A stretch of 24,000 nucleotides of DNA. Origin: Thaumarchaeota archaeon CSP1-1 (GTDB taxonomy: Archaea > Thermoproteota > Nitrososphaeria > Nitrososphaerales > Nitrosopumilaceae). The stretch spans positions 1-24,000 of the forward strand of contig LDXL01000004.1 of assembly GCA_001443365.1 (NCBI GenBank), given 5' to 3'. Every line of letters starts with the position of its first letter. Within the stretch, counting starts at the first letter, position 1. Below are positions 4,761 to 22,183 of this stretch, piece by piece. Position numbers and translations under genes: made by a program. The notes under the pieces were generated by a model that was not told the origin of the DNA, searched no databases, and worked only from the letters and a program-made list of their open reading frames with translations.

Positions 4761-6488
4761 CTACCAGTACTTTACCTTAATTTTTTCAATCACTCGCTCG
4801 TGCTCTCCGCCTCTTTTTCTAGCATATCTTTCCATTGCTCCTAGTGGTACACCACCAAGTGACCTTGCTATGAGATTAAACATGCTCTTCATTACAGAGC
4901 CGTTTCTTGCAGTCTTTACCATGAACTTTTGAATTCCATACTTGAAGTTGTGTTGCCAAGTCTTGTACATGACACCTAACTGAGCAGGATCCATTTCATT
5001 TCCAATATTGAAAAATTCAGATTTCTCCAGCAATCCAATTGGTACAAAAGTAAGAGGAGTTGCAGTAAACATTGCATCTGGTTGCTCTCTTTCTAGCTCA
5101 CTGATTAGTTGTATAGTTTCCCAAGAGTCCTCTGGCGTTTCATCATTGTCTAGTCCCATGATTAATGTAAATGCAGGAACCCAATAGTTTTCATTTAGTG
5201 TTTTGACTGCCTCTTTGACTAGCCAGTGCCATTCCTCAGGCTTGTATGGGGCAAGTTTTCTGTCTGCATATTTTTCGATCAGTCTACGGCTGCCTGTCTC
5301 AAGGCCACACTGAACACCAATAAAGTTTCCAGGGCCTGCCTTGATTATTTTTGAGAGTTTTGGAAGCAGCTTTTCATCAGCAATTGCTCCTGCAAGTGTA
5401 CCATGTGTGGGATTTGTATGCTCTACACCTGTAGACATTATTGCAGTAAAGAGCTCTACTAGTGCCTCTCGGTTTGGCTCCATTTGTTTTGTTGTTCTAG
5501 GGTCCATTCCATAAACAAAAATATCATCACTTTGAATCCATGCAGATGTCTCTCCACCTTTTTTCAAGTTTACCTCAATTTCCTTTTTGACTTTCTCAGG
5601 AGAATAGTATCGCAATGATCGTAGTGTAACATCACAAAACTTGCATCCACGTCCGCATCCACGCATTACCTCAACCATTCCGTGCATGCTTGGCTCTACA
5701 ATTTCTGGAATGTCATCAAGATCTGGTCTGTCCCAGAAATTAACAAATCTTCCATGAATCGTTTTTTCACCGCGCTTGAACTCTTTGATGTCTACCTTAA
5801 AGTCACTTCTTTTTCTAAAGGGATCCATGTTTTCAAATTCTCCATTCATTAGATAATTAAAAAAGCGTCCAGCATGACCGTCTATTTCTGGTGCAATGCC
5901 GCCAAGCTCTCCTTCTAAAACTGCATACAGGCCATATTCTTCAATTTTTTCTGGATCATAGTTGTATTGCCATGTTCCTGAAGCGCCAGCAATTACCTTT
6001 GCATTGCTGTGATTTTTTTTCTTTGCAGCATTAATTTTTCTGTGAAGGTCTCTACAATAGTATTCGTCATAAGACATTTGCTTGCGTCCATAAGTAAATG
6101 TCATAGTAACTGGGCCCATGCCAAGTGGGTCCATCTCATATGTTCCAACAACTTGAGTTTCTGGACCAATGAATTTTTCAATGTGATCAGGATGAGCGAC
6201 AACTACCTCGTTTCGTTTAAAGCCGTCACGCAACAGACCTGCCTCGACTTTTCTTAACCCATATGGAGCATAGTTTGCAATTCCATTTGTGTGAGATGTA
6301 GTATTGCAGATAAAGTCAAACAAAATCTTTGGTGTAACTTGTTGTCCTAGGATTTTATACCAAAAGTCGCTTTTTGGTCTGTCAGGGTCAATGGCTGGCG
6401 CACAACCAAAAAATGTCGCAAGCGATATTCCACGATATGGAGACATTAATGTACGATCTGCAGTTAACACAATTTTTGGATTGCCCAT
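4761..6488 (-). CDS. radical SAM enzyme, large (575 aa), substrate unknown
   Basis: CxxxCxxC cluster motif in VMRGCGRGCKFCDV at about residue 285. It has a long N-terminal domain (KIVLTADRTLMSPYRG...) and a C-terminal extension. The subfamily cannot be assigned by eye. Confidence 0.8.
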   Translation of the reverse strand: MGNPKIVLTADRTLMSPYRGISLATFFGCAPAIDPDRPKSDFWYKILGQQVTPKILFDFICNTTSHTNGIANYAPYGLRKVEAGLLRDGFKRNEVVVAHPDHIEKFIGPETQVVGTYEMDPLGMGPVTMTFTYGRKQMSYDEYYCRDLHRKINAAKKKNHSNAKVIAGASGTWQYNYDPEKIEEYGLYAVLEGELGGIAPEIDGHAGRFFNYLMNGEFENMDPFRKRSDFKVDIKEFKRGEKTIHGRFVNFWDRPDLDDIPEIVEPSMHGMVEVMRGCGRGCKFCDVTLRSLRYYSPEKVKKEIEVNLKKGGETSAWIQSDDIFVYGMDPRTTKQMEPNREALVELFTAIMSTGVEHTNPTHGTLAGAIADEKLLPKLSKIIKAGPGNFIGVQCGLETGSRRLIEKYADRKLAPYKPEEWHWLVKEAVKTLNENYWVPAFTLIMGLDNDETPEDSWETIQLISELEREQPDAMFTATPLTFVPIGLLEKSEFFNIGNEMDPAQLGVMYKTWQHNFKYGIQKFMVKTARNGSVMKSMFNLIARSLGGVPLGAMERYARKRGGEHERVIEKIKVKYW

Positions 6489-6564
6489 CTTTTACCCTAG
6501 ACGAGCTTACTTTTCTAATTGATTTTAAACCTTCTGGGTATAGTTAAGGATGGTTCAGAGATAT

Positions 6565-7383
6565 CTAGTAGGCCTCTAAGATACCTGCCTTGTTTCGGTG
6601 TGTGTGACCAAATTCACTTTTTGAGAGTAAAGTCTTGCCATCAAATATTGTTCCATCCTTACACACTAGAAGGTCATTTACACAGCAACTGCCACAAATT
6701 CCTACTCCACACTTCATCATTCGCTCAAGGCTTGCTTCTACAAACATACCTTTGCTAGTTGCTATCGAAATAACCTTTGACATCATCAATTCTGGCCCGC
6801 AGGTATACACTGCATCAAATTTTGTGTCCTGACAGAGTTTATCCATTATATCAGTGACAAGCCCTTTTTGTCCATAGGTGCCGTCTTCTGTTGCAACTAT
6901 TACCTGGTGCTTGTTTTTATCAAGCAGCCTATTTGCATAGTCTTCAAAGAATACCTCATTTTTTGTTTTTGCCCCCATGATTAGAGTAACATCGTCTGTT
7001 GGTGTAAAAAATGTCAATAATCGCACTAGTGGAACAAGGCCTGTTCCACCTCCAACTAGCAAAAGCTTGCCTTTTTTGATAGTAAATGAATTGCCATATG
7101 GACCCCGTACACCAATTGATTCTCCAACTTTAACATTGTATAATGCAGTAGAAGATTGGCCATATTTTCGTATAGTAAATGCAGCTTTTCCCTTTTCTGG
7201 TGAAATCATTACACTCATTGGAAGCTCGTTTACACCTGGAACCCAGACCATTGCAAATTGGCCAGGCAAAACATCACACAGTACGTCATCAGAAAAAGTT
7301 AAAGTCCTAACTGTAGGTGTCTCGTCTGTAACTTTTTCAATTTTACAAATTGTTTGGCGATTAGAATTTCTTTGCACGACCAA
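6565..7383 (-). CDS. pyrK: dihydroorotate dehydrogenase (class 1B) electron-transfer subunit PyrK
   Basis: 272 aa. FAD/NAD-binding LLLVGGGTGLVPL and the C-terminal 2Fe-2S motif MKCGVGICGSCCV. There is no ATG near the N-terminus, so the start must be TTG (7383) or GTG (7377), which overlaps the pyrD 3' end. Confidence 0.85.
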   Translation of the reverse strand: MVVQRNSNRQTICKIEKVTDETPTVRTLTFSDDVLCDVLPGQFAMVWVPGVNELPMSVMISPEKGKAAFTIRKYGQSSTALYNVKVGESIGVRGPYGNSFTIKKGKLLLVGGGTGLVPLVRLLTFFTPTDDVTLIMGAKTKNEVFFEDYANRLLDKNKHQVIVATEDGTYGQKGLVTDIMDKLCQDTKFDAVYTCGPELMMSKVISIATSKGMFVEASLERMMKCGVGICGSCCVNDLLVCKDGTIFDGKTLLSKSEFGHTHRNKAGILEAY

Positions 7384-8287
7384 CCATGTCCTCTATTTTG
7401 GAAAATCCCTTTTTTTCCATGTACTGGAGTATTCCTTTGTTAATGTCATCAAAAACTGAAATCCAATTGTCCCCAACTGCACTGCCAATCTGAACTGCCG
7501 ATGCTCCTGCAAGAATAAATTCCACTGCGTCATCCCAGCTAGAGATTCCGCCACAACCAATTATTGGGATATCATATTGTGATGAGATTTCATATACGCA
7601 TCGCACCGCAACTGGTTTAATTGGAGTGCCAGACAAGCCGCCTATTTTGTTGCTAAGTATTGGTCGCTCTGTTTCAACATCTATTGCCATAGCACGCAAT
7701 GTGTTAATGGCAGTAATTGCATCAATTCCTGCCTTACATGCAGCATCAACTGTATCTAGATAGTTAGTTGTACCAAGGCCAACCTTTGCAATTACAGGAA
7801 CATCAGTTTTTGATTTTACAGTTTTTACAATTTTTTTAACCAGGTCTGGGTCGTCCCCTACTTCTAGTCCAACTTTAGCTACATGTGGGCATGACAGGTT
7901 TAGCTCAAAGGCTAGAACCTTAATGTCTTCAAATTGTTTTATCATAAATTCAAAGTCTTTTGGTATAGAACCAACAAGAGATACAATGATTGGTACATCC
8001 TTGTTAGATGAAATCATTTTTGCAAAGTTTGGAGCACCAGGGTTTGATAGACCAACTGCATTTATCCATCCGCCTCCCTTTACACCAAATATTGTTGGAT
8101 TTGGATATCCATCCCATGGCTCTTTACTAAGTGACTTGCTCACAACAGCTCCTGCCCCTGCCTGATAAATTCGATTAAAAACTTCTAGTGAGATTCCTAA
8201 AATCCCAGACGCTAAAATTGTCGGTCTTGCCAGCTTTATAGAGCCAATAGATGTGAAAAGGCTTGGATTCACTTTGATTCCTAGCAA
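7361..8287 (-). CDS. pyrD: dihydroorotate dehydrogenase catalytic subunit PyrD (class 1B)
   Basis: 308 aa. Motifs PTILASG, NLSCPH and GCGGISSWDDAVEFILAGASAVQIGSA. There is no N-terminal ATG; candidate starts are TTG 8287 or GTG 8272. Confidence 0.9.
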   Translation of the reverse strand: MLGIKVNPSLFTSIGSIKLARPTILASGILGISLEVFNRIYQAGAGAVVSKSLSKEPWDGYPNPTIFGVKGGGWINAVGLSNPGAPNFAKMISSNKDVPIIVSLVGSIPKDFEFMIKQFEDIKVLAFELNLSCPHVAKVGLEVGDDPDLVKKIVKTVKSKTDVPVIAKVGLGTTNYLDTVDAACKAGIDAITAINTLRAMAIDVETERPILSNKIGGLSGTPIKPVAVRCVYEISSQYDIPIIGCGGISSWDDAVEFILAGASAVQIGSAVGDNWISVFDDINKGILQYMEKKGFSKIEDMVGRAKKF

Positions 8288-11186: not shown

Positions 11187-11363
11187 TTAAACATCTTTTA
11201 TCTTGGATTTGACTTTTCTAATAATTTCATCAGGGATTTCTGACATTTTATGGGCCTTTTTAGCATGCTCTGATATTTTTTGAAATAACTCTTTTTCATC
11301 TTTTGCAGTAGTAGACCAAGCACAGCCATTTACTACATCGCCACATGCAAACTTTTTTGCCAT
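11187..11363 (-). CDS. DUF1059-family small metal-binding protein (58 aa), below the ORF-track cutoff
   Basis: My own translation is MAKKFACGDVVNGCAWSTTAKDEKELFQKISEHAKKAHKMSEIPDEIIRKVKSKIKDV. The pattern F-x-C-x-D-x3-C ... EHAKxxH ... PxExxxKV matches my recollection of DUF1059. Confidence 0.6.
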   Translation of the reverse strand: MAKKFACGDVVNGCAWSTTAKDEKELFQKISEHAKKAHKMSEIPDEIIRKVKSKIKDV

Positions 11364-11417: not shown

Positions 11418-12080
11418 TTAGTAATGTCTTCTTTGTAGTGCAATGATTCCAGCTAACAAAATTAATGTAAAACCAACAACGCCTACTCCTAGTGATATTA
11501 TCAAGATCGCAAATGAGACAAAAAACAATATCTTTCCAACCTTCTTTGGTTTTTTGATAAGAAAAGAAATTGCTATAACAAAAATACATAGGACACTTGT
11601 AGCAATTCCTGCTGCGATAAATAAATTGGTAAATCCAGAAAGGTCTCGTCCTGTGTATGACTCTAAAGAAAACAGTATTCTTTCAATGGTATAGACAGCA
11701 ACCAATGAAGGAATCAAGGCAGCCAGTCCACCAAGTATTGCAAGGAGCTGGTAAAAGTTTACACCGAGATGAAAACGAAATGGAAATGAGCGTGAGCTAA
11801 ACCTTGATGAAAATACTTCAGCATCAAAGTATTTTTGCTGAGGAATTCCACAAAAGGAACAATAGTTTGAAGACTGTAAGATAGTGTTTCCACACTTGGG
11901 ACAGTTGAAAGATGTTGTTTTCTCTAAATCATTTGTCGGCTGCTCATTTTTTTCAAAATTAGCATCAATAAGTGATTCAACATACTCTATATCTGAATTG
12001 TATACCTTCTTTTTTTCAACAATAGAGTTTTTGATGTGAGTTAATCTGCTTACGTCTCCAATTCCGCTATTTATCAACAA
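11418..12080 (-). CDS. zinc-ribbon membrane protein (N-terminal cytoplasmic region, CxxC-x12-CxxC ribbon, about 4 TM helices)
   Basis: 220 aa. Zinc ribbon CPKCGNTILQSSNYCSFCG followed by hydrophobic helices (LLAILGGLAALIPSLVAV, FIAAGIATSVLCIFVIAISF, ILFFVSFAILIISLGVGVVGFTLILLAGIIAL). There is no ATG before the zinc ribbon, so the start is TTG 12080 or another non-ATG codon. Confidence 0.6.
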   Translation of the reverse strand: MLINSGIGDVSRLTHIKNSIVEKKKVYNSDIEYVESLIDANFEKNEQPTNDLEKTTSFNCPKCGNTILQSSNYCSFCGIPQQKYFDAEVFSSRFSSRSFPFRFHLGVNFYQLLAILGGLAALIPSLVAVYTIERILFSLESYTGRDLSGFTNLFIAAGIATSVLCIFVIAISFLIKKPKKVGKILFFVSFAILIISLGVGVVGFTLILLAGIIALQRRHY

Positions 12081-12277
12081 CTCTACTTTGCCAAGTAATG
12101 ATTTGATCTTCTTTCACCTATGAAATGTCTAGTTCCAACTTTCCATATTAAAGAATTTATCATAATTTATCTTACAAAATTAATAACATAATTTTTGCTG
12201 TCTCATATTATTCCATGTCACGATATGTTGATAGCAAGTCTTAATTGATTGGGCACGTACATTTGAATCCTGAGAGT

Positions 12278-13663
12278 ATGACAAAGGTAGCCCCCCTCCC
12301 CCCCGCACCAGTTTTAATGACTTGTTTTGGCCACTGTGGGATAGGATTAGGAGCCGAGACTTATCGTAGATTATTGCTTGATGTTGGGGCAAATCCATTA
12401 AAGCCAACTATTAAAAGCGCAAAGGAAGAGTCCAGAGTTTTAAAACGATATGGAAGCACCATACTCCGATTCGCTCCTTCCTATGGAACAGGTGAGATTC
12501 CACTTATACCAAGAGCCCTACTTGTTGATTTAGATCCAAGGGCTGCAAACCTGATACTTCAATCATACCCAGACCTTTTTGCATTACGTGAAAAACATGT
12601 GATACATGGAGCTGGCGGTGCTGCAAGGAATTGGGCTGAAGGAAGGACAAGATTCACCCAAGAGATGAAATCAAAAGAGGAGATCCAAAAACATCTAACT
12701 GCGCTCTCACCAGAACCAGTGCGAGGATTTATCGTTCCTTTTGCCATGGGTGGCGGCACAGGTAGTTCGTTTGCAAGCTCATTTATTGAATTTGTAAAAA
12801 AAGATTCTAAAGAGCATGCTACAGTTGCTACTTTTGGATTGCTTCCAGAATTTGGATGGGATCCAGTAATTTTTGAGGCAGCTGCAATAAACATTGTCAT
12901 GAATCTTGAATATCAGATAAAATACAGTGATTGTTCTATATTATTTTCAAACAAAACTCTAAGACAACTAGCACACCAACATGAAAAAAGATTACAAAAA
13001 ATTCCATCCATAATTGATGACTTGCCTAAAGAACAGGAAGTTGGATGGAAGGAGTACAAGGGAATGAATCTGATTGCAGCAAATGCAATTTCGATGTTTA
13101 TTTCCTCATTTGCAAGAGAGACAGAATGGGATATGTCAAATTATAGAACGTGGTTAACGACAAAGAGACCAAAGTTTGCAATACCATGGGCAATCCCTGT
13201 AATTGCAGAAGAAAGTCAATGGAACAAGGAATTGCTTGGTGGAAGATCAAACACAATGGATGACGTAATAACTAGAATAGGAAAAAGAGAGGATGCGCTT
13301 CTTTTTGACATTGATGAAAATGACATTAGAAACAAGGGTGGCAAAAAGGATTCCTGCTGTGTTTTGGTAAAAATTAGAGGAGAGTTTGATATCAAAGAAC
13401 GTGAAACGATTAAACGAATTATCAAAGATAAATTCAATATCGAAGAATCCAGAATGATTTTTGTAAAAATTCCAATTATGGATGGAGAACAGGCAAATGT
13501 CACCATCTTGGTCAATACTAAAGCCATAGGACCAAAAATTCTTGAAATTGCAACAGAGGCAGAAGAATCATGGGATGGTTATAAAGAAGAATATGGAAGG
13601 TGGGGCCTATCAACAGAAGAATTCAAACAAGGATTGATGGATGTAGTCCACCAATTTAGCTAA
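12278..13663 (+). CDS. tubulin-like GTPase (artubulin-type, tubulin/FtsZ superfamily)
   Basis: Motifs line up with eukaryotic tubulin. CFGHCGIGLG matches GQCGNQIG. IPRALLVDLDPRAANL matches VPRAxLVDLEPGTMD. GAGGAARNWAEG matches GAGNNWAKG. GGGTGSS matches the signature GGGTGSG. DMSNYRTWLTTKRPKFAIPWAIPV matches [25 protein letters not shown]. The track ORF begins at TTG 12245, but ATG 12278 (MTKVAPLPPAPVLMTCFGHCG) is the likelier start. Confidence 0.85.
   Translation: MTKVAPLPPAPVLMTCFGHCGIGLGAETYRRLLLDVGANPLKPTIKSAKEESRVLKRYGSTILRFAPSYGTGEIPLIPRALLVDLDPRAANLILQSYPDLFALREKHVIHGAGGAARNWAEGRTRFTQEMKSKEEIQKHLTALSPEPVRGFIVPFAMGGGTGSSFASSFIEFVKKDSKEHATVATFGLLPEFGWDPVIFEAAAINIVMNLEYQIKYSDCSILFSNKTLRQLAHQHEKRLQKIPSIIDDLPKEQEVGWKEYKGMNLIAANAISMFISSFARETEWDMSNYRTWLTTKRPKFAIPWAIPVIAEESQWNKELLGGRSNTMDDVITRIGKREDALLFDIDENDIRNKGGKKDSCCVLVKIRGEFDIKERETIKRIIKDKFNIEESRMIFVKIPIMDGEQANVTILVNTKAIGPKILEIATEAEESWDGYKEEYGRWGLSTEEFKQGLMDVVHQFS
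12291..12304 (+). repeat. C6-T-C7 homopolymeric tract inside the 5' end of the tubulin-like CDS
   Basis: Read directly as cccccctccccccc at 12291-12304, encoding part of APLPPAP. It is conspicuous in an otherwise AT-rich window. Confidence 0.9.
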
Positions 13664-13678
13664 AGGGCTTTTACTAAA

Positions 13679-14233
13679 ATGGCTGATTTTAATTTTCTTG
13701 AAAAAACTGCAGTAAGAATAAAAGAAAATAGAGCAAAATTAGCTCAGCTAGAAGAATCTCTTGCATACGTTAACACAGAAATACACGAGATTCCTCTAAA
13801 GCGCAACACCGAATCAACCTTTGCAAAGATTATTGGAATTGGATATGATGACAGAATAGATGAGCTTAAAAAATCAAAAGATAATCTTGAAAATCAAATA
13901 AAAAATTTGAGCGATGCAGTAACCTCCGACATGTCCTCATTTATTTCTGAAATTAGTTCACCAGATTTGGTGATCCCACTAGAACCAAATCCTAACCTGA
14001 AAGATGGCAAAACAATTTACAAGTATCGTGATGGTGCAAAATTTAATAATATTTTTGATGTATTAAGCGAATTGTTAGGCCTAAGTGCTCCACTTGTTGT
14101 AAAGGATGTCATGCTTTCTTCAACAGAGATAACAATTGCAACACGCGAAGAATTTGAGGCAAAACAAAAGTTTATCAGCGCCATGAATGAAATTCAAAAA
14201 ACCCTACTGATTAAAAAAAGTCATAAACCATAA
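13679..14233 (+). CDS. hypothetical coiled-coil protein co-oriented with the tubulin-like gene
   Basis: 184 aa. It starts 15 nt after the artubulin stop. The N-terminal segments are heptad-like (IKENRAKLAQLEESLAYVNTEIHEI; IDELKKSKDNLENQIKNLSDAV) and are followed by a C-terminal globular part. I recognised no family. Confidence 0.6.
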   Translation: MADFNFLEKTAVRIKENRAKLAQLEESLAYVNTEIHEIPLKRNTESTFAKIIGIGYDDRIDELKKSKDNLENQIKNLSDAVTSDMSSFISEISSPDLVIPLEPNPNLKDGKTIYKYRDGAKFNNIFDVLSELLGLSAPLVVKDVMLSSTEITIATREEFEAKQKFISAMNEIQKTLLIKKSHKP

Positions 14234-14348: not shown

Positions 14349-14486
14349 TCAATTTTCTCTGTGAGTTTGAAAACATTCTTTGCAATAAACTGGTCTGTCC
14401 TCTTTTGGCTTGAATGGTATCTCACATTCGTTTCCACAGTCACCGCAAGTTGCTTTGAACATTTCTCGCTCTCTATCAAATGGCAT
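14349..14486 (-). CDS. small CxxC-x17-CxxC zinc-ribbon protein (45 aa), below the ORF-track cutoff
   Basis: My own translation is MPFDREREMFKATCGDCGNECEIPFKPKEDRPVYCKECFQTHREN. C-x2-C ... (V/I)PFKP ... RPVYC-x2-C is the hallmark of the widespread CxxC-x17-CxxC domain family. Confidence 0.55.
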   Translation of the reverse strand: MPFDREREMFKATCGDCGNECEIPFKPKEDRPVYCKECFQTHREN

Positions 14487-16497: not shown

Positions 16498-17214
16498 CTA
16501 CTTTTTTGATTTATTAATTTCTATAAGAACCCAGTCTTCAATTAACTGACACGTTAGTGGACTTATCTCTCCCTCCAAGGAACATTTCTGTTCCACAGGA
16601 CATGTCAAACATGGTGCGTCTTCAATAGATTCTGTACTAACAGGTGTTCTTTTGATTATTAATTTATAGGTCCATCTACCTTTTTCGAGAATTTTTTCTC
16701 TTGAAATTATCCCTAATCTTTCTAATTTAAGAGCCAATCTAGAACCGTCTCTACTAGTTAGTTTTAATTTCTTCCATAATTCGCTTTGTAACATTCCATC
16801 TGTTTCATATTTGGCAACAATATCACAGACCTTGTTTGTTAGCTTCTCCATATCCATTTTTTCTATTTGAAAGTTTTGAATTTCTTCATCTGTGAGTTGT
16901 TCTTCTAACTCTTCTTCGTAGGTTTTAGGTTCCTCTTTCTCAAGTTCCTCTTTTATTTTCTTTTCTTCTTTCTTAGATGGAGCTTTTGTTTTCTTTTCTT
17001 CTTTCTTAGATGGAACTTTTATTTTCTTTTCTTCTTTCTTAGATGGAGCTTTTATTTTCTTTTCTTTACTTGAAGTTTTTTGTTCTAATTCCATCCTTAA
17101 TTTCTTAATTTTTTGTTCCAGCTGTTGAGCTTTTTTTGCAATTGCACTTGTTGTAGCTGGTGTATCTGATTCTGTTGATGATTTTTCTTTTTTTGGTTCC
17201 ATAATTTCTCTCAA
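16498..17214 (-). CDS. TFE-beta / RPC34-like transcription factor (winged helix plus Cys4 Fe-S domain) with an N-terminal K/E-rich repeat extension
   Basis: 238 aa. The C-terminal half has a wH-like segment (MLQSELWKKLKLTSRDGSRLALKLERLGIISREKILEKGRWTYKLI). This is followed by C-x2-C-x5-C-x10-C (CLTCPVEQKCSLEGEISPLTC). That architecture was described for crenarchaeal/thaumarchaeal TFE-beta and RPC34/hRPC39. The assignment is from memory of the architecture, not from a search. Confidence 0.55.
   Translation of the reverse strand: MREIMEPKKEKSSTESDTPATTSAIAKKAQQLEQKIKKLRMELEQKTSSKEKKIKAPSKKEEKKIKVPSKKEEKKTKAPSKKEEKKIKEELEKEEPKTYEEELEEQLTDEEIQNFQIEKMDMEKLTNKVCDIVAKYETDGMLQSELWKKLKLTSRDGSRLALKLERLGIISREKILEKGRWTYKLIIKRTPVSTESIEDAPCLTCPVEQKCSLEGEISPLTCQLIEDWVLIEINKSKK
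16950..17070 (-). repeat. 33-bp in-frame tandem repeat (about 3.6 copies) encoding (A/V)PSKKEEKK(I/T)K
   Basis: On the plus strand, the units beginning cttagatgg at 16972 and 17005 differ by 2 nt. The unit beginning at 17038 matches for its first 26 nt or so and then diverges. A partial copy lies at 16951-16971. The period of 33 nt equals 11 codons. Confidence 0.9.
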
Positions 17215-17268: not shown

Positions 17269-17790
17269 TTATTTAACAATAAATGTCTCACTTGTAGTTA
17301 GGGTTTTTTTGAATTCTATGTCATTGATTTCAGCAACAATCTCGTATTGACCACTGTCTATTATTTCAGAAAATTCATCATCTATTGGCATCACGAGGTT
17401 ATTTTTTGAATAACATTGACCAAAAAATGCACTTTGAGTCACAACTTCTTTGGGAGTTTTTGAGATATCATAAATTGTTATGTATAAATCTCCACAATCA
17501 AAAATTGGATCACTAACTGAAACTGTAATTTTGATTGGTTGTGACTTTGATAATTCGTCATCTAATCCAATAATCGTAATTGCGCCCGAAGAAACTACAA
17601 TTTTATCCGAAAATTCAAAGGGCCACATATCAAGTTCTCGCTCAGGAGATTTTAGAACTTCACCTAGAACTATACTACCAAAAAATATTGAAATCACTGC
17701 TGGAAATAAAAAGACGACAAAAGCAATGTTTTTAACAGCCAATTCGAATTTAACAGCGCTAATTCCTTTATATCTATTTAGTAATGACAA
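17269..17790 (-). CDS. hypothetical membrane-anchored extracytoplasmic protein
   Basis: 173 aa. It has a single N-terminal TM helix (IAFVVFLFPAVISIFFGSIVLG) and then a beta-rich domain. No recognisable family. Divergent from the ATPase-Toprim gene. Confidence 0.5.
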   Translation of the reverse strand: MSLLNRYKGISAVKFELAVKNIAFVVFLFPAVISIFFGSIVLGEVLKSPERELDMWPFEFSDKIVVSSGAITIIGLDDELSKSQPIKITVSVSDPIFDCGDLYITIYDISKTPKEVVTQSAFFGQCYSKNNLVMPIDDEFSEIIDSGQYEIVAEINDIEFKKTLTTSETFIVK

Positions 17791-17849: not shown

Positions 17850-19952
17850 ATGAGACTAAGAAAATTTAGAGTTCGTGCATTTCGGTGCATTCATGATTCT
17901 GGGGAAATCAAAGTAGGAGACTTGGCAGCATTTGTTGGAAGAAATGAAAGTGGAAAAACAACAATCTTGCAGGGTCTTACATTATTGAACAAAGATGAGA
18001 ACGTTTCTAATCTTGATCTATGTGATGAGATGTCTGAAGAGTTAAAAAATGAGATAAATATTGCTGATGGGGATTTTGATCTAACAATAAATGAAACACA
18101 AATGATTAAGGATAAATTTCCAAATATCCCTGAAATTAAAAAATTAAGAATTTTCCGTACCAATAAAAAACAAAAAATCCAATATGACTTTGGTCCAATA
18201 AAAATAAGCAACGAAGAAAATAAAGCATTAAACTCTTGGGAAAACTTTGCAGAAAATATACTCAATTTTGTTGAAACTATTCCTAATCACATTAGAATAA
18301 GATTAGATACAACATTCTTTGAAGGGTCTCTACCAGAGAGTCGAGAAATTTTTGATTCTCAAATGAGAGAATTTGGAAATACGATTCATGTTTTAGCATC
18401 TGAAGAACCACAAATAATTTCAGAGTGGGAAAAAGTTTCCAAAAATGCTGATGCTGCTTTTGATAAGATGTTGGTAGGAACCACAGAACTTACTGCTTTA
18501 GAAAACTTTATTGAAGAATATCTACACCCACGTTTTGTTTATTTTTCTGATTATAAGAAAATCTATGGAAATATCAATCTAAATGAATATGTCAAAGAAT
18601 CAAAAGGTTATAGAACGGAAGGAATAGAGTTTGTTGAAGAATTTGACAAAGCAGAAACTGTTAGAAACTTATTTTATTTAGCTGAATTAGATATTGAAGG
18701 ATTAGAAGAGTTTCATAATAGTCCTTCAAAATTGATAAAGTATCTCAATACTGCAAGCAATAGATTAACTACAAGACTCAATCCTGCCTGGAAAGGGGAT
18801 CCAATACATGTTGATTTAAGATACAATCCTGGAAATATCTTGAGTGTTGTAATTTCTGATATTCATAAAGATGGTACAGTGACCAATACCGGATTGTTAA
18901 ATAGAAGAGCTGAGGGTTTCAAATGGACATTTTCTTTTATAGTTAATTTTGCTGCAGAGACTCAAAGAGCAGAACTTAAGGAGGCCATATTACTGCTTGA
19001 TGAACCTGCACGAAACTTACATCCTACCCAACAACGAGGAATCTCTGATCTGTTAAAGAACTTAGCTGGCTCAAACCAAGTCCTTTATGCAACCCACTCT
19101 CCTTTCATGATATTTGATTATACTCCAGGAAATTTACTAGTAGTTGAGCTTGATAAGAGAAAGCACCTAAGCAAGATATACTATGATTATTGGAATGCTA
19201 GTGATGAAACTCTCACACCGATTTTGTATGGATTATCAAGAGGTCTAGTGGAATCTATCGTAGATAGAGAAATTGGTTCTAATTCAAGACCAGTAATAAT
19301 TGTTGAAACAATGTCTGATGCGATGTATCTAAATGCGTTTGATAAATTTCTAGAAGATCCCAATATCTCAATGAATCCGCTAAACGTTGTCGCTGCATAT
19401 AGTAAAAATTCAGTATTACCGCTTGCAATATTTTATCGAGATCATGGATATAAAACCTTCATCTTACTTGACAACAGTGAAGAATCAAAACATATCTCGA
19501 CTCAGTTGACTGCAAATGATTTCTCTCAAGTACAAACTATATTTTTTGAGTCTGGTGGAAAACAAATACAATCAATAGAGGATTATTTACATATTGAAGA
19601 CTACCTTTATGCCGTAAACCAGACATACGAGATCATGCTAAGAAGGGAAGGATTTAGTAATTTAGCTAAAGAGGATGTTTTAGCAAGGGGGAAGAAGGGA
19701 ATTGTTGAGAATCTTAATGCAATCTGGATGGAACATAAAGATGAAGGATGGGGCAAATTCAACAACGAAGAAATTACAAGATATATTTGTGAAAAAATTG
19801 CTTTAAATGAAATTGACTTTTTATCTGATAAATCAAAGGAACAGTTAAGAACGCTGTATAGGTTAATTGCAGAAAGAATTCGCCAACATCAAAATCTAAT
19901 TTCAAGCGGGAATCTAGATAAATTACATATCAAGCGAAAGTTTGATCAATGA
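17850..19952 (+). CDS. ABC/AAA-type ATPase fused to a C-terminal Toprim-like domain (OLD-family / PARIS-like nuclease candidate)
   Basis: 700 aa. ATPase motifs: Walker A GRNESGKT, signature-like RRAEGFKWTFSFIVNF, Walker B LLLDEP and H-loop LYATHSP, with a long helical insertion between Walker A and the signature. The C-terminal region has VIIVETMSDAMY ... SKNSVLP ... FILLDNSEE, arranged like the Toprim E ... DxD. No helicase gene lies nearby. Confidence 0.55.
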   Translation: MRLRKFRVRAFRCIHDSGEIKVGDLAAFVGRNESGKTTILQGLTLLNKDENVSNLDLCDEMSEELKNEINIADGDFDLTINETQMIKDKFPNIPEIKKLRIFRTNKKQKIQYDFGPIKISNEENKALNSWENFAENILNFVETIPNHIRIRLDTTFFEGSLPESREIFDSQMREFGNTIHVLASEEPQIISEWEKVSKNADAAFDKMLVGTTELTALENFIEEYLHPRFVYFSDYKKIYGNINLNEYVKESKGYRTEGIEFVEEFDKAETVRNLFYLAELDIEGLEEFHNSPSKLIKYLNTASNRLTTRLNPAWKGDPIHVDLRYNPGNILSVVISDIHKDGTVTNTGLLNRRAEGFKWTFSFIVNFAAETQRAELKEAILLLDEPARNLHPTQQRGISDLLKNLAGSNQVLYATHSPFMIFDYTPGNLLVVELDKRKHLSKIYYDYWNASDETLTPILYGLSRGLVESIVDREIGSNSRPVIIVETMSDAMYLNAFDKFLEDPNISMNPLNVVAAYSKNSVLPLAIFYRDHGYKTFILLDNSEESKHISTQLTANDFSQVQTIFFESGGKQIQSIEDYLHIEDYLYAVNQTYEIMLRREGFSNLAKEDVLARGKKGIVENLNAIWMEHKDEGWGKFNNEEITRYICEKIALNEIDFLSDKSKEQLRTLYRLIAERIRQHQNLISSGNLDKLHIKRKFDQ

Positions 19953-20041: not shown

Positions 20042-22183
20042 TTGTTAAATAATATGTATTTGTCCTCGAGGGGAGGTTTTCTTTTCCTAGTTCTCATCGT
20101 ATCTATATTTGCAGTGACAACTATACCAGAACTTTATTCTCAGGAAGAATTAGTTACAGCAAAAAGTATAGGTTTTGAGGAAACCACAATAATAGAATTT
20201 GAAAACAGTAACGATAACACATCAGAAATTGATACCTTTCGAATATGGTTGGGTAGCGACTCTAACTTCAAATCGTTTAAGACTGAAAGAGGGTGGACTG
20301 GACAAAAAACACCAGAAGGAGTAATTGTATTTACAACTTCAAATCCTGTACAACCTGGCGAAGTAGTAAAATTTGGTGTAAAAACTGATAAACCAAAACC
20401 TGGAATAAACTGGAAGGCACTTACTGATACTGACCAACAAATAGCAACTGGAAAAACACTTGCTTCAGATTCGTCAAGTACTGAATCTAATATAGAAGCC
20501 TCTGAAAGTGGTACTGGTGTCTTTGAGAGTTCTTCTTTTCGCTTAATCCCAGAAAAGCCTAGTGTTGGTGCAAGTATGAGAGTAACTGGGGAGAATTTTG
20601 CAGCAAATCATAAGCTTGATTTCTACATAGATAACAAAAAGATTGATTCATTTGAAACAGATGGAGATGGCCGCTTTATGTTTACAAGTTCTGTCCCTAA
20701 AGATCAAACAGCTGATAGAGTAGATTTCAAAATAGTGGATGCTAAGGGAAACGAAAAAGCAATCAGTCTTAGACTAGGAGAAGAAACTGGAATCGCAACA
20801 ACAGAAAATATACCTCTTACCATAAGTGCGATACCTTCTATTGTGTATAGAGGTGATACTGTAAAAGTTACTGGAACTGGTCCTCCTGGAAAATCCGTTA
20901 CCGCTACAATAAAAGATGAGAGTGACAAGATTGTAACAACAATTGCAGTTAATGTAGATCTTAATGGTAAATGGGAGTATGAGGGATTAGTTGCAGTAGA
21001 TGCACCCTTAGGAAAACAAACTGCTGAAATTACCGATGGGGTTGAAACCATTTTACGAACTTGGACTGTAGAATCGTCAAAAAAAATAGAGATTCTTCCA
21101 ATCAAGGTAAGATTTGAACCTGGGGAAACAATCATTTTTAATGGTACTGCAAAGCCAAATGAAGAATTAGAAATTGTTGTAGAAGACCCTCAAGGAACTG
21201 AAGTTTACTCAGAGTTTTTGAACATAGATTCCTCAGGTGTAGTGAATATAGAACTCCCGACTTTCCAATCATCGATTGAGGGAACATATGTGTTATTTGC
21301 GTCCCAAGGTGACGATATTGATATTGTTATAGTTGGTTTGGGACAACTTCCAGAGGAGAAGATTGTAGTAAAACCCGATAAACTCAACTATTCAACATCA
21401 GAGAAGGCATTATTAGAAATAAAAGGTCCACCATCTGCAACAGTTTCATTATTGATAGTAGATCCTTCTGATAAGAACAAGTTTACTGATACTATAATTT
21501 TGGGACCAGATGGTCAATCACATTATGAATTAGATTTGAATGGGTATGGTTCTGGGGTGTATACTGCAGTACTTACTAGAGGAAACGCACAGACATCAGA
21601 TGTTTTCTCTGTTGGACTTCAGACTGGGTCTGGTGAGATAAATGCAAAAACAACAAAAGAAACGTATCAACCAGGAGAGTCAATTTTGATACTTGGGGAT
21701 TCGGCAGATAATATGCTCTTAACTATAGAACTAATAGATCCAGATGGAAACGTTCTCAAAACCAAAGATACCTTTACTAACAAAGATGGAATTTTCTCTG
21801 TGAGTTCGTTTAGAATTCCGGTAGAAGCTAAGGTTGGAACATGGACAATTCATGTAAAAAGTGGCCCTAACTTTGATGATGTCAAGGTAACTGTTCAAGG
21901 CAACATTGAAGAAGGTTTAGTGGTTTTTGTAGATAAAATTGAAGTTACGTCATCTGGAAGAATTGTAACAATTAAAGGATTTGGAGCAGAAATTAGTCAG
22001 AATGTAGTAATAACTATTTTAGATCAATCAGATGTAGAGGTAACTGAGCTTCGCGCAAGTACCACGGGTACTGGAGAATTTGGAATTCCATGGATTGTTC
22101 CAAGCGATGTAGCTCCTGGAACATACACATTAAAGGCAAAAGATCCCGTTACAGAAGTAGAGATTACTTTTGTTTTAAAATAG
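20042..22183 (+). CDS. secreted or surface protein with six tandem beta-sandwich (Ig/MG-like) modules of about 85 aa
   Basis: 713 aa. N-terminal hydrophobic signal or anchor (GGFLFLVLIVSIFAVTTIPELYS) followed by a Ser/Thr-rich linker. Repeated modules share PGE(S/T)I.. G ... (V/I)VDP.G..V ... G.F...F.(I/L)P... GTY/W. GGAGG at 20030-20034 precedes TTG 20042; the alternative start is ATG 20054. Confidence 0.65.
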   Translation: MLNNMYLSSRGGFLFLVLIVSIFAVTTIPELYSQEELVTAKSIGFEETTIIEFENSNDNTSEIDTFRIWLGSDSNFKSFKTERGWTGQKTPEGVIVFTTSNPVQPGEVVKFGVKTDKPKPGINWKALTDTDQQIATGKTLASDSSSTESNIEASESGTGVFESSSFRLIPEKPSVGASMRVTGENFAANHKLDFYIDNKKIDSFETDGDGRFMFTSSVPKDQTADRVDFKIVDAKGNEKAISLRLGEETGIATTENIPLTISAIPSIVYRGDTVKVTGTGPPGKSVTATIKDESDKIVTTIAVNVDLNGKWEYEGLVAVDAPLGKQTAEITDGVETILRTWTVESSKKIEILPIKVRFEPGETIIFNGTAKPNEELEIVVEDPQGTEVYSEFLNIDSSGVVNIELPTFQSSIEGTYVLFASQGDDIDIVIVGLGQLPEEKIVVKPDKLNYSTSEKALLEIKGPPSATVSLLIVDPSDKNKFTDTIILGPDGQSHYELDLNGYGSGVYTAVLTRGNAQTSDVFSVGLQTGSGEINAKTTKETYQPGESILILGDSADNMLLTIELIDPDGNVLKTKDTFTNKDGIFSVSSFRIPVEAKVGTWTIHVKSGPNFDDVKVTVQGNIEEGLVVFVDKIEVTSSGRIVTIKGFGAEISQNVVITILDQSDVEVTELRASTTGTGEFGIPWIVPSDVAPGTYTLKAKDPVTEVEITFVLK

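What the first reader, a model, noticed from the sequence alone, without database searches (positions are those of the whole stretch)
12278..13663. Eukaryote-like tubulin (artubulin-type) gene in an archaeal chromosome
Seen in sequence: the product matches eukaryotic alpha/beta-tubulin block by block rather than FtsZ/CetZ. The matches are as follows. T1 loop CFGHCGIGLG versus GQCGNQIG. IPRALLVDLDPRAANL versus VPRAxLVDLEPGTMD. GAGGAARNWAEG versus GAGNNWAKG. FAMGGGTGSSF versus the tubulin signature GGGTGSG. ILFSNKTLRQLA versus xIDNEALYDIC. DMSNYRTWLTTKRPKFAIPWAIPV versus alpha-tubulin [25 protein letters not shown]. Established knowledge: tubulin-like artubulins were reported only in Nitrosoarchaeum thaumarchaea (Yutin and Koonin 2012). 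As far as I know they remain functionally uncharacterised, with no data on polymerisation, localisation or partners. Inference: the C-terminal roughly 120 residues (DENDIRNKGGKKDSCCVLVKIRGEFDIKERE...) look unlike the tubulin C-terminal helices H11/H12, so the surface that binds motors and MAPs in eukaryotes is probably replaced here.
Basis: partly seen in the sequence, partly recalled or inferred. Interest (0 to 1): 0.85.

Follow-up and report, generated by a model that had tools for sequence, protein, structure and literature searches.

The report
Known archaeal tubulin with conserved partner
The gene is a real "artubulin", an already described tubulin relative of ammonia-oxidising archaea; the useful additions are that it keeps the whole tubulin fold and is always followed by one small partner gene of unknown type.

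Summary
ORF 12278-13663 (+) encodes a 461-aa protein whose motifs align with tubulin block by block. It matches Pfam Tubulin (3e-18) and a tubulin profile (hhalign 99.9%, E 1.5e-33, 398 columns). An E. coli FtsZ control gave 3.8%. The protein is not new. It is identical to GenBank KRT61526.1 ("putative Tubulin gamma chain", Thaumarchaeota archaeon CSP1-1) and belongs to the artubulin family of Yutin and Koonin (2012). The family is not confined to Nitrosoarchaeum: 200 species genomes encode a relative. AlphaFold and the profile alignment both recover S8-H10-S9-S10-H11-H12; only the acidic tail is missing. First, a 184-aa gene (13679-14233) lies 1-17 nt downstream in every locus with enough DNA: 79/79 when searched from artubulin, 79/79 when searched from the partner, and three distant lineages. 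It has no Pfam family or significant PDB fold match. Second, the published Snf7 linkage is absent here and present in only 13/80 loci. Third, the residue aligned with catalytic alpha-tubulin Glu254 is an invariant Asn. Most likely this is a GTP-binding, filament-forming tubulin with a dedicated adaptor or regulator. Its cellular role is untested.

The parts
12278..13663 (+). Artubulin gene. It encodes a 461-aa full-length tubulin-fold GTPase, with the stop codon at 13661-13663. An in-frame TTG at 12245 is not conserved as a start.
   Evidence: ORF. Pfam Tubulin 3.2e-18. hhalign to a tubulin profile gives 99.9%, E 1.5e-33. AF2 model pTM 0.81 with tubulin topology. Foldseek top 50 are all eukaryotic tubulins, TMt 0.67-0.77. 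Identical to GenBank KRT61526.1.
13664..13678 (+). 15-nt spacer between the artubulin stop codon and the partner start codon. This tight spacing is typical of an operon.
   Evidence: Sequence. The equivalent gap is 2-16 nt in 79 genome loci and 1-17 nt in distant lineages.
13679..14233 (+). Conserved partner gene, here called CC184 (184 aa). It is predicted as a long helical hairpin (4-52 / 56-92), a small alpha/beta domain (about 97-153) and a C-terminal helix (158-181). It belongs to no known family.
   Evidence: It lies directly downstream of artubulin in 79/79 genome loci with DNA. Artubulin lies directly upstream in 79/79 metagenome loci fetched through CC184. It is also present in three distant lineages at 25-32% identity. 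AF2 pLDDT 88. No Pfam or NCBIfam match. No PDB fold match at E<=1e-3.
12081..12277 (.). AT-rich divergent intergenic region upstream of artubulin. I presume it holds the promoter; this is not shown.
   Evidence: Sequence. Inference only. No promoter test suited to archaea was available.
11418..12080 (-). Divergently oriented gene for a zinc-ribbon protein with a hydrophobic C-terminal half that reads as membrane-spanning (220 aa). It accompanies the operon only in this clade and a sister clade (7 of 81 loci). It is listed as context and is probably not part of the module.
   Evidence: Pfam Zn_Ribbon_1 2.9e-5, which at 24.1 bits is just below Pfam's 25-bit cut-off. Cluster membership. The membrane reading comes from the translated sequence, not from a predictor.

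Best explanation
The ORF is the artubulin of a Nitrosopumilaceae archaeon. The protein is identical to KRT61526.1 of Thaumarchaeota archaeon CSP1-1. It is a member of a known, tight family that is restricted to thaumarchaea.

Shown: it has a complete tubulin fold, consisting of the GTPase domain, core helix H7, the intermediate domain and two C-terminal helices equivalent to H11/H12. The nucleotide-contacting residues are conserved. It is the first gene of a strictly conserved two-gene operon whose second gene encodes a 184-aa helical-hairpin protein of no known family.

Inferred: the protein binds GTP and assembles head-to-tail into homopolymeric protofilaments, as every characterised member of the tubulin/FtsZ superfamily does. 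The co-translated partner binds it as a dedicated adaptor or regulator of assembly. Possible roles are nucleation, bundling, capping or coupling to a cellular target.

The residue that aligns with the catalytic Glu254 of alpha-tubulin is an invariant Asn (N288). D285 is retained and E283 is gained. GTP turnover in the polymer is therefore probably slow or differently catalysed, and dynamics may depend on the partner.

The cellular process served (division, shape or positioning) is not determined. My confidence that this is an artubulin is about 0.97. The 0.55 given below applies to the filament-plus-adaptor mechanism.
For: Identity and family:
- Pfam Tubulin 3.2e-18.
- The best PDB hits are Asgard, gamma, alpha, Odin and Btub tubulins.
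- hhalign of the family profile against a 28-sequence tubulin profile gives 99.9%, E 1.5e-33, 398 columns, residues 10-453 of the window protein.
- Proteins from genomes titled Nitrosarchaeum are 81-84% identical over the full length.
- The sequence exactly matches KRT61526.1.

Fold:
- The AF2 model has pTM 0.81 and the order S1...S10, H11, H12.
- The Foldseek PDB top 50 are all eukaryotic tubulins, E about 1e-18, TMt 0.67-0.77, about 480 aligned columns.

GTP site:
- G18-x-x-G21-x-G23, GGAARNW (113-119), GGGTG (158-162), N225, Y260 and N264 are invariant in 26 family members.
- They align with tubulin T1, T3, T4, N206, Y224 and N228.

T7 loop:
- E283, D285 and N288 align with alpha N249, D251 and E254 by two methods.
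- The best-scoring alpha-tubulin chain is 7SJA, the E254N mutant, which does not hydrolyse GTP (PMC8764682).

Partner:
- Adjacent in 79/79 and 79/79 loci in the two reciprocal searches.
- Adjacent in three lineages whose artubulins are only 51-58% identical.
- The wider gene context differs between clades.
Against: There are no experimental data on artubulin anywhere in the searchable literature. Polymerisation and partner binding are inferences from homology and synteny. No complex prediction could be run.

The Asn at the catalytic position could mean that the protein does not cycle like a cytomotive filament. Beta- and gamma-tubulin also lack the Glu.

The AF2 confidence for the N-terminal domain is only moderate (pLDDT 52-81). 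The S7-H9 (M-loop) region is low-confidence (<50 at residues 312-321) and varies in length.

The partner has no recognisable membrane-, DNA- or tubulin-binding motif.
Confidence: 0.55

Rival explanations
1. The protein works with ESCRT-III (CdvB/Snf7) in cell division, as Yutin and Koonin proposed from gene adjacency in Nitrosoarchaeum.
For: In the Nitrosarchaeum-type loci a Snf7 gene (Pfam Snf7 6e-9) lies directly upstream, co-oriented, next to a dCMP deaminase gene. This reproduces the published neighbourhood.
Against: Snf7 is upstream in only 13 of 80 loci, 11 of them from records titled Nitrosarchaeum. It is absent from this window, where the upstream gene is a divergent zinc-ribbon protein. 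N. uzonensis was also reported to lack the linkage (PMC3835317). The universally linked gene is CC184, which is not Snf7-like: hhalign 1.9%, no ESCRT-III among the 50 best Foldseek hits, none of them significant.
Confidence: 0.15
2. It is not a polymer. Artubulin would be a gamma-tubulin-like or switch-type GTPase that forms a stable complex with CC184 and acts without GTP-driven filament dynamics.
For: The catalytic-position residue is Asn. The E254N change abolishes hydrolysis in microtubules. JGI labels the family 'tubulin gamma'. The partner is obligate.
Against: The longitudinal-interface elements (T7 loop with D285, H8, T3 and T5 loops) are invariant across the family. I know of no characterised tubulin/FtsZ-fold protein that fails to polymerise; this statement rests on my own knowledge.
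Confidence: 0.15
3. It is a divergent FtsZ/TubZ-type paralogue and not a tubulin-family member (Findeisen et al. 2014). On that view its tubulin-like motifs are convergent or an artefact of long-branch effects.
For: Published trees grouped artubulin with TubZ (PMC4202323). Its position remains 'never fully resolved' on a very long branch (PMC13394414). The Pfam Tubulin_C HMM does not match. In a library clustered at 50% identity the family stands alone, with a large gap to the next relatives.
Against: - The profile alignment to tubulins covers 398 columns including H11/H12, against 32 columns and 3.8% for E. coli FtsZ.
- No FtsZ model in NCBIfam matches at E<=1.
- There is no tblastn hit in 72,556 plasmids and no meaningful hit in phages, where I expect TubZ and PhuZ genes to be found.
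- The structural match to phage FtsZ/PhuZ models gives TMq 0.36-0.44, against 0.64-0.72 for eukaryotic tubulins.
- Santana-Molina et al. 2023 reach the same conclusion.
Confidence: 0.08
4. It is a TubZRC-like DNA-segregation or mobile cassette. Artubulin would be the motor and CC184 the adaptor that binds a centromere.
For: The two-gene unit sits in different genomic contexts in different clades, as if it moved as a cassette. This resembles operons that pair a tubulin-like gene with a small adaptor gene.
Against: - There are no iterons or tandem repeats flanking the operon.
- CC184 has no HTH or other DNA-binding family match that reaches its cut-off and no significant fold match.
- There are no plasmid, phage or defence-library matches.
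- The flanking genes here are core housekeeping genes.
Confidence: 0.07

Closest known systems
Artubulin of Nitrosoarchaeum limnia/koreensis (Yutin and Koonin 2012, PMC3349469)
   Same: It is the same family. Proteins from Nitrosarchaeum genomes are 81-84% identical over the full length. The tubulin-specific motifs are the same, and the host is a thaumarchaeon.
   Different: This copy has no Snf7 gene next to it and sits in a different chromosomal context, Nop5-fibrillarin-RNase HII | operon | Trm1-FtsJ. The downstream partner gene is not mentioned in the artubulin passages of the papers I read.
Eukaryotic alpha/beta/gamma-tubulin
   Same: The whole fold including H11/H12 is shared. So are the GTP-contact residues, including the equivalents of Y224 and N228 in H7.
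   Different: - Identity is only about 16-18%.
- There is no acidic C-terminal tail, and the pI is neutral at 7.1.
- Asn replaces the catalytic Glu254.
- It is a single gene, not an alpha/beta pair.
- The S7-H9 loop is long and variable.
- The Pfam Tubulin_C HMM does not match.
Asgard tubulins (Heimdall/Loki AtubA/B, OdinTubulin)
   Same: These are the best sequence hits among solved structures: 2e-17 with the single sequence and 4e-22 with the profile. They are also archaeal tubulin-family proteins.
   Different: The sequence alignments cover only the GTPase domain. AtubA and AtubB are encoded in tandem and form heterodimers and microtubules (PMC13394414). Artubulin is a single gene on a very long branch.
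BtubA/BtubB with BtubC (Prosthecobacter)
   Same: This is also a prokaryotic tubulin operon that carries a non-tubulin partner gene. That BtubC is a TPR-type partner is my own knowledge. BtubA is a PDB hit at 1e-9.
   Different: Btub is a heterodimer of two tubulins, and its partner is a TPR protein. Here there is one tubulin and a helical-hairpin partner. A TPR gene occurs upstream in only 25 of the related loci and not in this window.
FtsZ / CetZ / TubZ / PhuZ
   Same: They share the superfamily GTPase core and the GGGTG signature.
   Different: Similarity to E. coli FtsZ is limited to 32 columns. The structural TM-score to phage FtsZ/PhuZ models is 0.36-0.44.

Membership tests
Tubulin family (eukaryotic-type, including artubulin) | Tubulin/FtsZ GTPase domain above the curated threshold | tested here: met
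   PF00091 scores 67.1 bits against a cut-off of 33, residues 14-231.
Tubulin family (eukaryotic-type, including artubulin) | Nucleotide-binding loops T1, T3 and T4 (GGGTGSG signature), and the base contacts N206, Y224 and N228 | tested here: met
   GHCGIG, GGAARNW, GGGTGSS, N225, Y260 and N264 are present. They are invariant in 26 homologues and align to the tubulin positions.
Tubulin family (eukaryotic-type, including artubulin) | Intermediate domain plus two C-terminal helices H11/H12. I recall FtsZ lacking these helices; that point was not tested here. | tested here: met
   The AF2 model shows S7-H9-S8-H10-S9-S10 followed by helices 415-441 and 446-460, with pLDDT 75-93 for residues 401-461. 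hhalign reaches residue 458. Foldseek aligns about 480 columns to tubulins. This rests on prediction, not on a solved structure.
Tubulin family (eukaryotic-type, including artubulin) | Match to the Pfam Tubulin_C model (PF03953) | tested here: not met
   There is no hit at E<=1. Homology of this region is seen only at the profile-profile and fold level.
Tubulin family (eukaryotic-type, including artubulin) | Closer to tubulins than to FtsZ, TubZ or PhuZ | tested here: met
   - All 60 best PDB sequence hits are tubulins.
- No NCBIfam FtsZ model matches.
- TMq is 0.64-0.72 for tubulins against 0.36-0.44 for phage FtsZ/PhuZ.
- CetZ and TubZ were not compared directly.
Tubulin family (eukaryotic-type, including artubulin) | Catalytic acidic residue in T7/H8 (alpha-tubulin E254) that activates GTP hydrolysis in the polymer | tested here: not met
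   The aligned residue is the invariant N288. D285 (aligned with D251) is retained. By my recall beta-tubulin has Lys and gamma-tubulin Gly at this position, so the feature defines an activating subunit and not family membership.
Tubulin family (eukaryotic-type, including artubulin) | Acidic, disordered C-terminal tail | tested here: not met
   The protein ends ...LMDVVHQFS directly after the last helix.
Tubulin family (eukaryotic-type, including artubulin) | GTP-dependent polymerisation into protofilaments | not testable with these tools
   This needs recombinant protein, nucleotide assays and EM.
Artubulin (Yutin and Koonin 2012) | Full-length orthology to the Nitrosoarchaeum proteins, in a thaumarchaeal genome | tested here: met
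   Identity to proteins from Nitrosarchaeum genomes is 81-84% over residues 1-461. The family aligns end to end at 51-98% identity. The host is Thaumarchaeota archaeon CSP1-1.
Artubulin (Yutin and Koonin 2012) | Adjacent Snf7/CdvB gene (reported association, not a definition) | tested here: not met
   There is no Snf7 gene in the window next to the operon. Snf7 is upstream in only 13 of 80 loci.
ESCRT-III / Snf7 (considered for the partner CC184) | Snf7 profile match or ESCRT-III fold | tested here: not met
   There is no Pfam Snf7 hit at E<=1. hhalign against the Nitrosarchaeum Snf7 gives 1.9%. Foldseek against the PDB finds nothing at E<=1e-3 and no ESCRT-III among the 50 best hits.
TubZRC type III partition system | DNA-binding adaptor plus centromeric repeats, on a plasmid or phage | tested here: not met
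   There are no flanking iterons. No DNA-binding family match for the partner reaches its cut-off. There is no plasmid or meaningful phage homologue. The context is chromosomal housekeeping genes.

The most novel reading that the evidence does not exclude
Artubulin and the 184-aa helical-hairpin protein may form an obligate two-component cytoskeletal module of ammonia-oxidising archaea that has not been described. On this reading the partner is a new class of tubulin-binding protein. The invariant Asn at the catalytic position makes the filament intrinsically poor at hydrolysis, a natural 'E254N', so that assembly and disassembly are controlled by the partner and not by GTP turnover.
Probability: 0.3. 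Interest if true: 0.6.

Novelty: already known. Interest (0 to 1): 0.33.

Why it matters
Artubulins were once proposed as ancestors of eukaryotic tubulin. They have since been overtaken by the Asgard tubulins, and nobody has reported what they do.

This particular gene adds nothing new as a sequence, because it is already in GenBank. The analysis does sharpen what an experimenter should do:
- Express the tubulin together with its invariably co-encoded 184-aa partner.
- Expect a complete tubulin fold without an acidic tail.
- Test whether Asn288 makes the polymer hydrolysis-deficient.

It also corrects two ideas in circulation. The family is not confined to Nitrosoarchaeum, and its characteristic neighbour is not Snf7.

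Tried and rejected
- The PDB sequence search lists only the best 60 hits, so the rank of FtsZ, CetZ and TubZ was not visible.
- Partner protein: Pfam, NCBIfam, PADLOC, PHROGs, a PDB profile search and Foldseek all gave only weak coiled-coil noise. A comparison with Snf7 was negative.
- Centromere-like repeats, tRNAs and Rfam families around the operon: none found.
- Plasmid and phage collections gave no relatives.
- The distant artubulin-like protein P0248 sits on a 1.7-kb contig with no room for a downstream gene, so it tells nothing about the partner.
- No phylogeny was built. No ML program was available, and published site-heterogeneous analyses already leave the position unresolved.
Full report
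**1. The observation**

An ORF runs from 12245 (TTG) or 12278 (ATG) to 13663 on the + strand. Homologues are mostly 461 aa and align from the ATG, while the 11 extra N-terminal codons are not conserved.

The protein matches Pfam Tubulin (PF00091) at 3.2e-18, 67 bits against a cut-off of 33, over residues 14-231. No FtsZ model of NCBIfam matches even at E<=1. Against all PDB sequences, the 60 best hits are all tubulins. They are Heimdall and Loki Asgard tubulins (2e-17 to 1.5e-16), gamma-tubulin (1e-12), OdinTubulin (8e-12), alpha- and beta-tubulin, and BtubA. A family profile gives the same picture.

This includes DMSNYRTWL...PKFAIPW with alpha-tubulin [18 protein letters not shown]. The flanking genes are archaeal housekeeping genes: RadA, L21e, Rpo4, Nop5, fibrillarin, RNase HII, Trm1 and FtsJ.

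**2. What it is**

The exact protein is already public. It is KRT61526.1, 'putative Tubulin gamma chain', from Thaumarchaeota archaeon CSP1-1. It belongs to the artubulin family described by Yutin and Koonin in 2012 (PMC3349469). Proteins from Nitrosarchaeum genomes are 81-84% identical over the full length.

- An artubulin was reported in Nitrosotenuis uzonensis in 2013 (PMC3835317).
- Here 200 of the species-representative genomes encode a relative. The 80 listed carry titles such as Nitrosarchaeum, Nitrosopumilus, Nitrosotenuis, Nitrosotalea and Nitrososphaera.
- A further clade at 51-58% identity includes records labelled Nitrososphaerales.

The family is compact and isolated. In a library clustered at 50% identity it collapses to one full-length representative (E 1e-213). 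The next full-length relative is at 1e-22.

Annotation pipelines disagree about these proteins. NCBI's annotation mostly calls them 'cell division protein FtsZ', and JGI calls them 'tubulin gamma'.

**3. Tubulin or FtsZ-like?**

I built a profile of 26 artubulins and aligned it to a profile of 28 diverse tubulin representatives. The result was 99.9% probability, E 1.5e-33, over 398 columns, covering residues 10-453 of the window protein.

Three controls are available:
- A single gamma-tubulin fragment gave 97.6%.
- tblastn found nothing in 72,556 plasmids and nothing meaningful in 50,697 phage records, where I expect TubZ and PhuZ genes to be found.

An AlphaFold2 model built on the family alignment has mean pLDDT 74.9 and pTM 0.81. 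Its 50 best Foldseek matches in the PDB are all eukaryotic alpha- or beta-tubulins, with E about 1e-18, about 480 aligned columns, TMq 0.64-0.72 and TMt 0.67-0.77. The best viral FtsZ or PhuZ models reach only TMq 0.36-0.44.

**4. The C-terminus**

The evidence goes the other way. This stretch is the most confident part of the model, with pLDDT 75-93. The predicted elements are as follows:

| Element | Residues |
|---|---|
| S8 | 359-365 |
| H10 | 372-386 |
| S9 | 393-397 |
| S10 | 407-413 |
| First terminal helix (H11) | 415-441 |
| Second terminal helix (H12) | 446-460 |

This is the tubulin order of elements. The profile alignment pairs ILVNTKAIG with the tubulin 'LxNxTxI' S10/H11 junction. 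It pairs EYGRWGLSTEEFKQG with 'YxxEGxxxxEFxEA' at the H11-H12 turn.

Some real differences remain:
- The Pfam Tubulin_C HMM does not match.
- The chain ends right after the last helix, with no acidic tail.
- The whole protein is neutral, with pI 7.1.

**5. Active site**

The residues that contact the nucleotide are invariant in the family. They are G18/G21/G23, GGAARNW, GGGTG, N225, Y260 and N264, and they align with tubulin T1, T3, T4, N206, Y224 and N228.

The T7 loop differs. Artubulin E283, D285 and N288 align with alpha-tubulin N249, D251 and E254, and HMMER and hhalign agree on this. The catalytic glutamate is therefore an invariant asparagine. The best-scoring alpha-tubulin chain in the PDB search is 7SJA, the engineered E254N mutant. 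Its microtubules do not hydrolyse GTP (PMC8764682).

D285 is retained and E283 is acidic, so hydrolysis may still occur by another route. This is inference.

**6. A conserved partner**

The 184-aa ORF at 13679-14233 starts 15 nt after the artubulin stop codon.
- In 80 genome loci fetched through artubulin, a homologue lies immediately downstream in 79, with gaps of 2-16 nt. In the remaining locus the DNA ends 39 nt after the artubulin gene.
- In 80 metagenome loci fetched through the partner, artubulin lies directly upstream in 79. The remaining contig starts 17 nt before the partner gene.
- Three distant lineages, whose artubulins are 51-58% identical, also carry a gene of 185-190 aa placed 1-17 nt downstream. 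These align with the partner at 25-32% identity.

Nothing else in the neighbourhood is conserved. The window's context is shared by only three close genomes. The upstream neighbours are summarised below.

| Upstream neighbour | Loci |
|---|---|
| Snf7, co-oriented (mostly Nitrosarchaeum-titled records) | 13/80 |
| SHOCT-domain small protein | 33 |
| TPR protein | 25 |
| Divergent zinc-ribbon protein (including this window) | 7 of 81 |

The partner has no family match that reaches its cut-off in Pfam or NCBIfam, and only weak coiled-coil noise in PADLOC and PHROGs. Its AlphaFold model is confident (pLDDT 88). It shows a ~50-residue helical hairpin, a small alpha/beta domain and a C-terminal helix. 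No PDB fold matches at E<=1e-3, and it shows no similarity to Snf7. The artubulin passages of the papers I read do not mention this gene.

**7. Mechanism**

Shown: the protein has a complete tubulin fold and an intact GTP pocket, and it sits in a strict two-gene operon.

Inferred: it forms GTP-dependent head-to-tail homopolymers, with the co-translated partner acting as a dedicated adaptor or regulator. GTP turnover is slow or altered because of N288.

The cellular role is open. The ESCRT-III link proposed in 2012 is specific to one clade. No centromere-like repeats, DNA-binding domains, plasmid or phage relatives support a TubZRC-like segregation role.

**8. Verdict**

The finding is real and correctly identified, but it is already known at the level of both the family and this exact sequence. 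The strictly conserved partner gene and the Glu-to-Asn substitution are modest new leads. They make the long-standing lack of functional data on artubulins easier to attack.

Noticed in passing
window 17850-19952 (+), with 16498-17214 (-), 17269-17790 (-) and 20042-22183 (+): A 700-aa AAA_15 ATPase resembles the OLD, Gabija GajA and AriA defence ATPases (PADLOC AriA 5.7e-23, Old 8.9e-20). It is flanked by two ORFs with no family and by a 713-aa MG2-domain protein. This may be a small defence islet.
   Followed up: partly
window 16950-17066: A 33-nt unit is repeated 3.5 times at 95% identity inside the unannotated ORF 16498-17214 (-). This implies an 11-residue repeat in the protein.
   Followed up: no
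window 11187-11363 (-) and 14349-14486 (-): Two small genes flank the operon region. One encodes a DUF1059 protein (3e-22) and the other a 45-aa treble-clef zinc-finger protein (PF23477, 5e-20).
   Followed up: partly
L045 (BMAH01000059.1) 6001-7937: An artubulin-partner operon, 81% identical to the window's, sits on a contig whose record is titled 'Gammaproteobacteria bacterium BBSC-SA02'. This is most likely a mis-binned thaumarchaeal contig.
   Followed up: no
L087 290-1669 (protein P0248): A 459-aa protein is only 24% identical to artubulins but aligns with their profile over the full length, C-terminus included (hhalign 99.2%). It may be a second, deep artubulin-like lineage. It is known from a 1.7-kb metagenome contig only.
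   Followed up: partly
L010 3125-4318 and 24-32 other loci: In many loci, including ones titled Nitrosotalea, a TPR protein (25 loci) and a small SHOCT-domain protein (33 loci) lie co-oriented directly upstream of artubulin. As I recall, the BtubAB partner BtubC is also a TPR protein. Neither gene is present in the window.
   Followed up: partly
protein records of the family: Public annotation is inconsistent. NCBI records mostly name artubulins 'cell division protein FtsZ' and JGI names them 'tubulin gamma'. Some JGI records label the partner 'cell division protein FtsB' or 'phage baseplate assembly protein gpV'. I found no support for these partner labels in Pfam, NCBIfam or PHROGs.
   Followed up: partly
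window 12559-12900 (-) and 13216-13527 (-): Antisense ORFs of 113 and 103 aa lie inside the artubulin gene and recur in most related loci. They are shadows of the conserved coding frame, not genes.
   Followed up: partly
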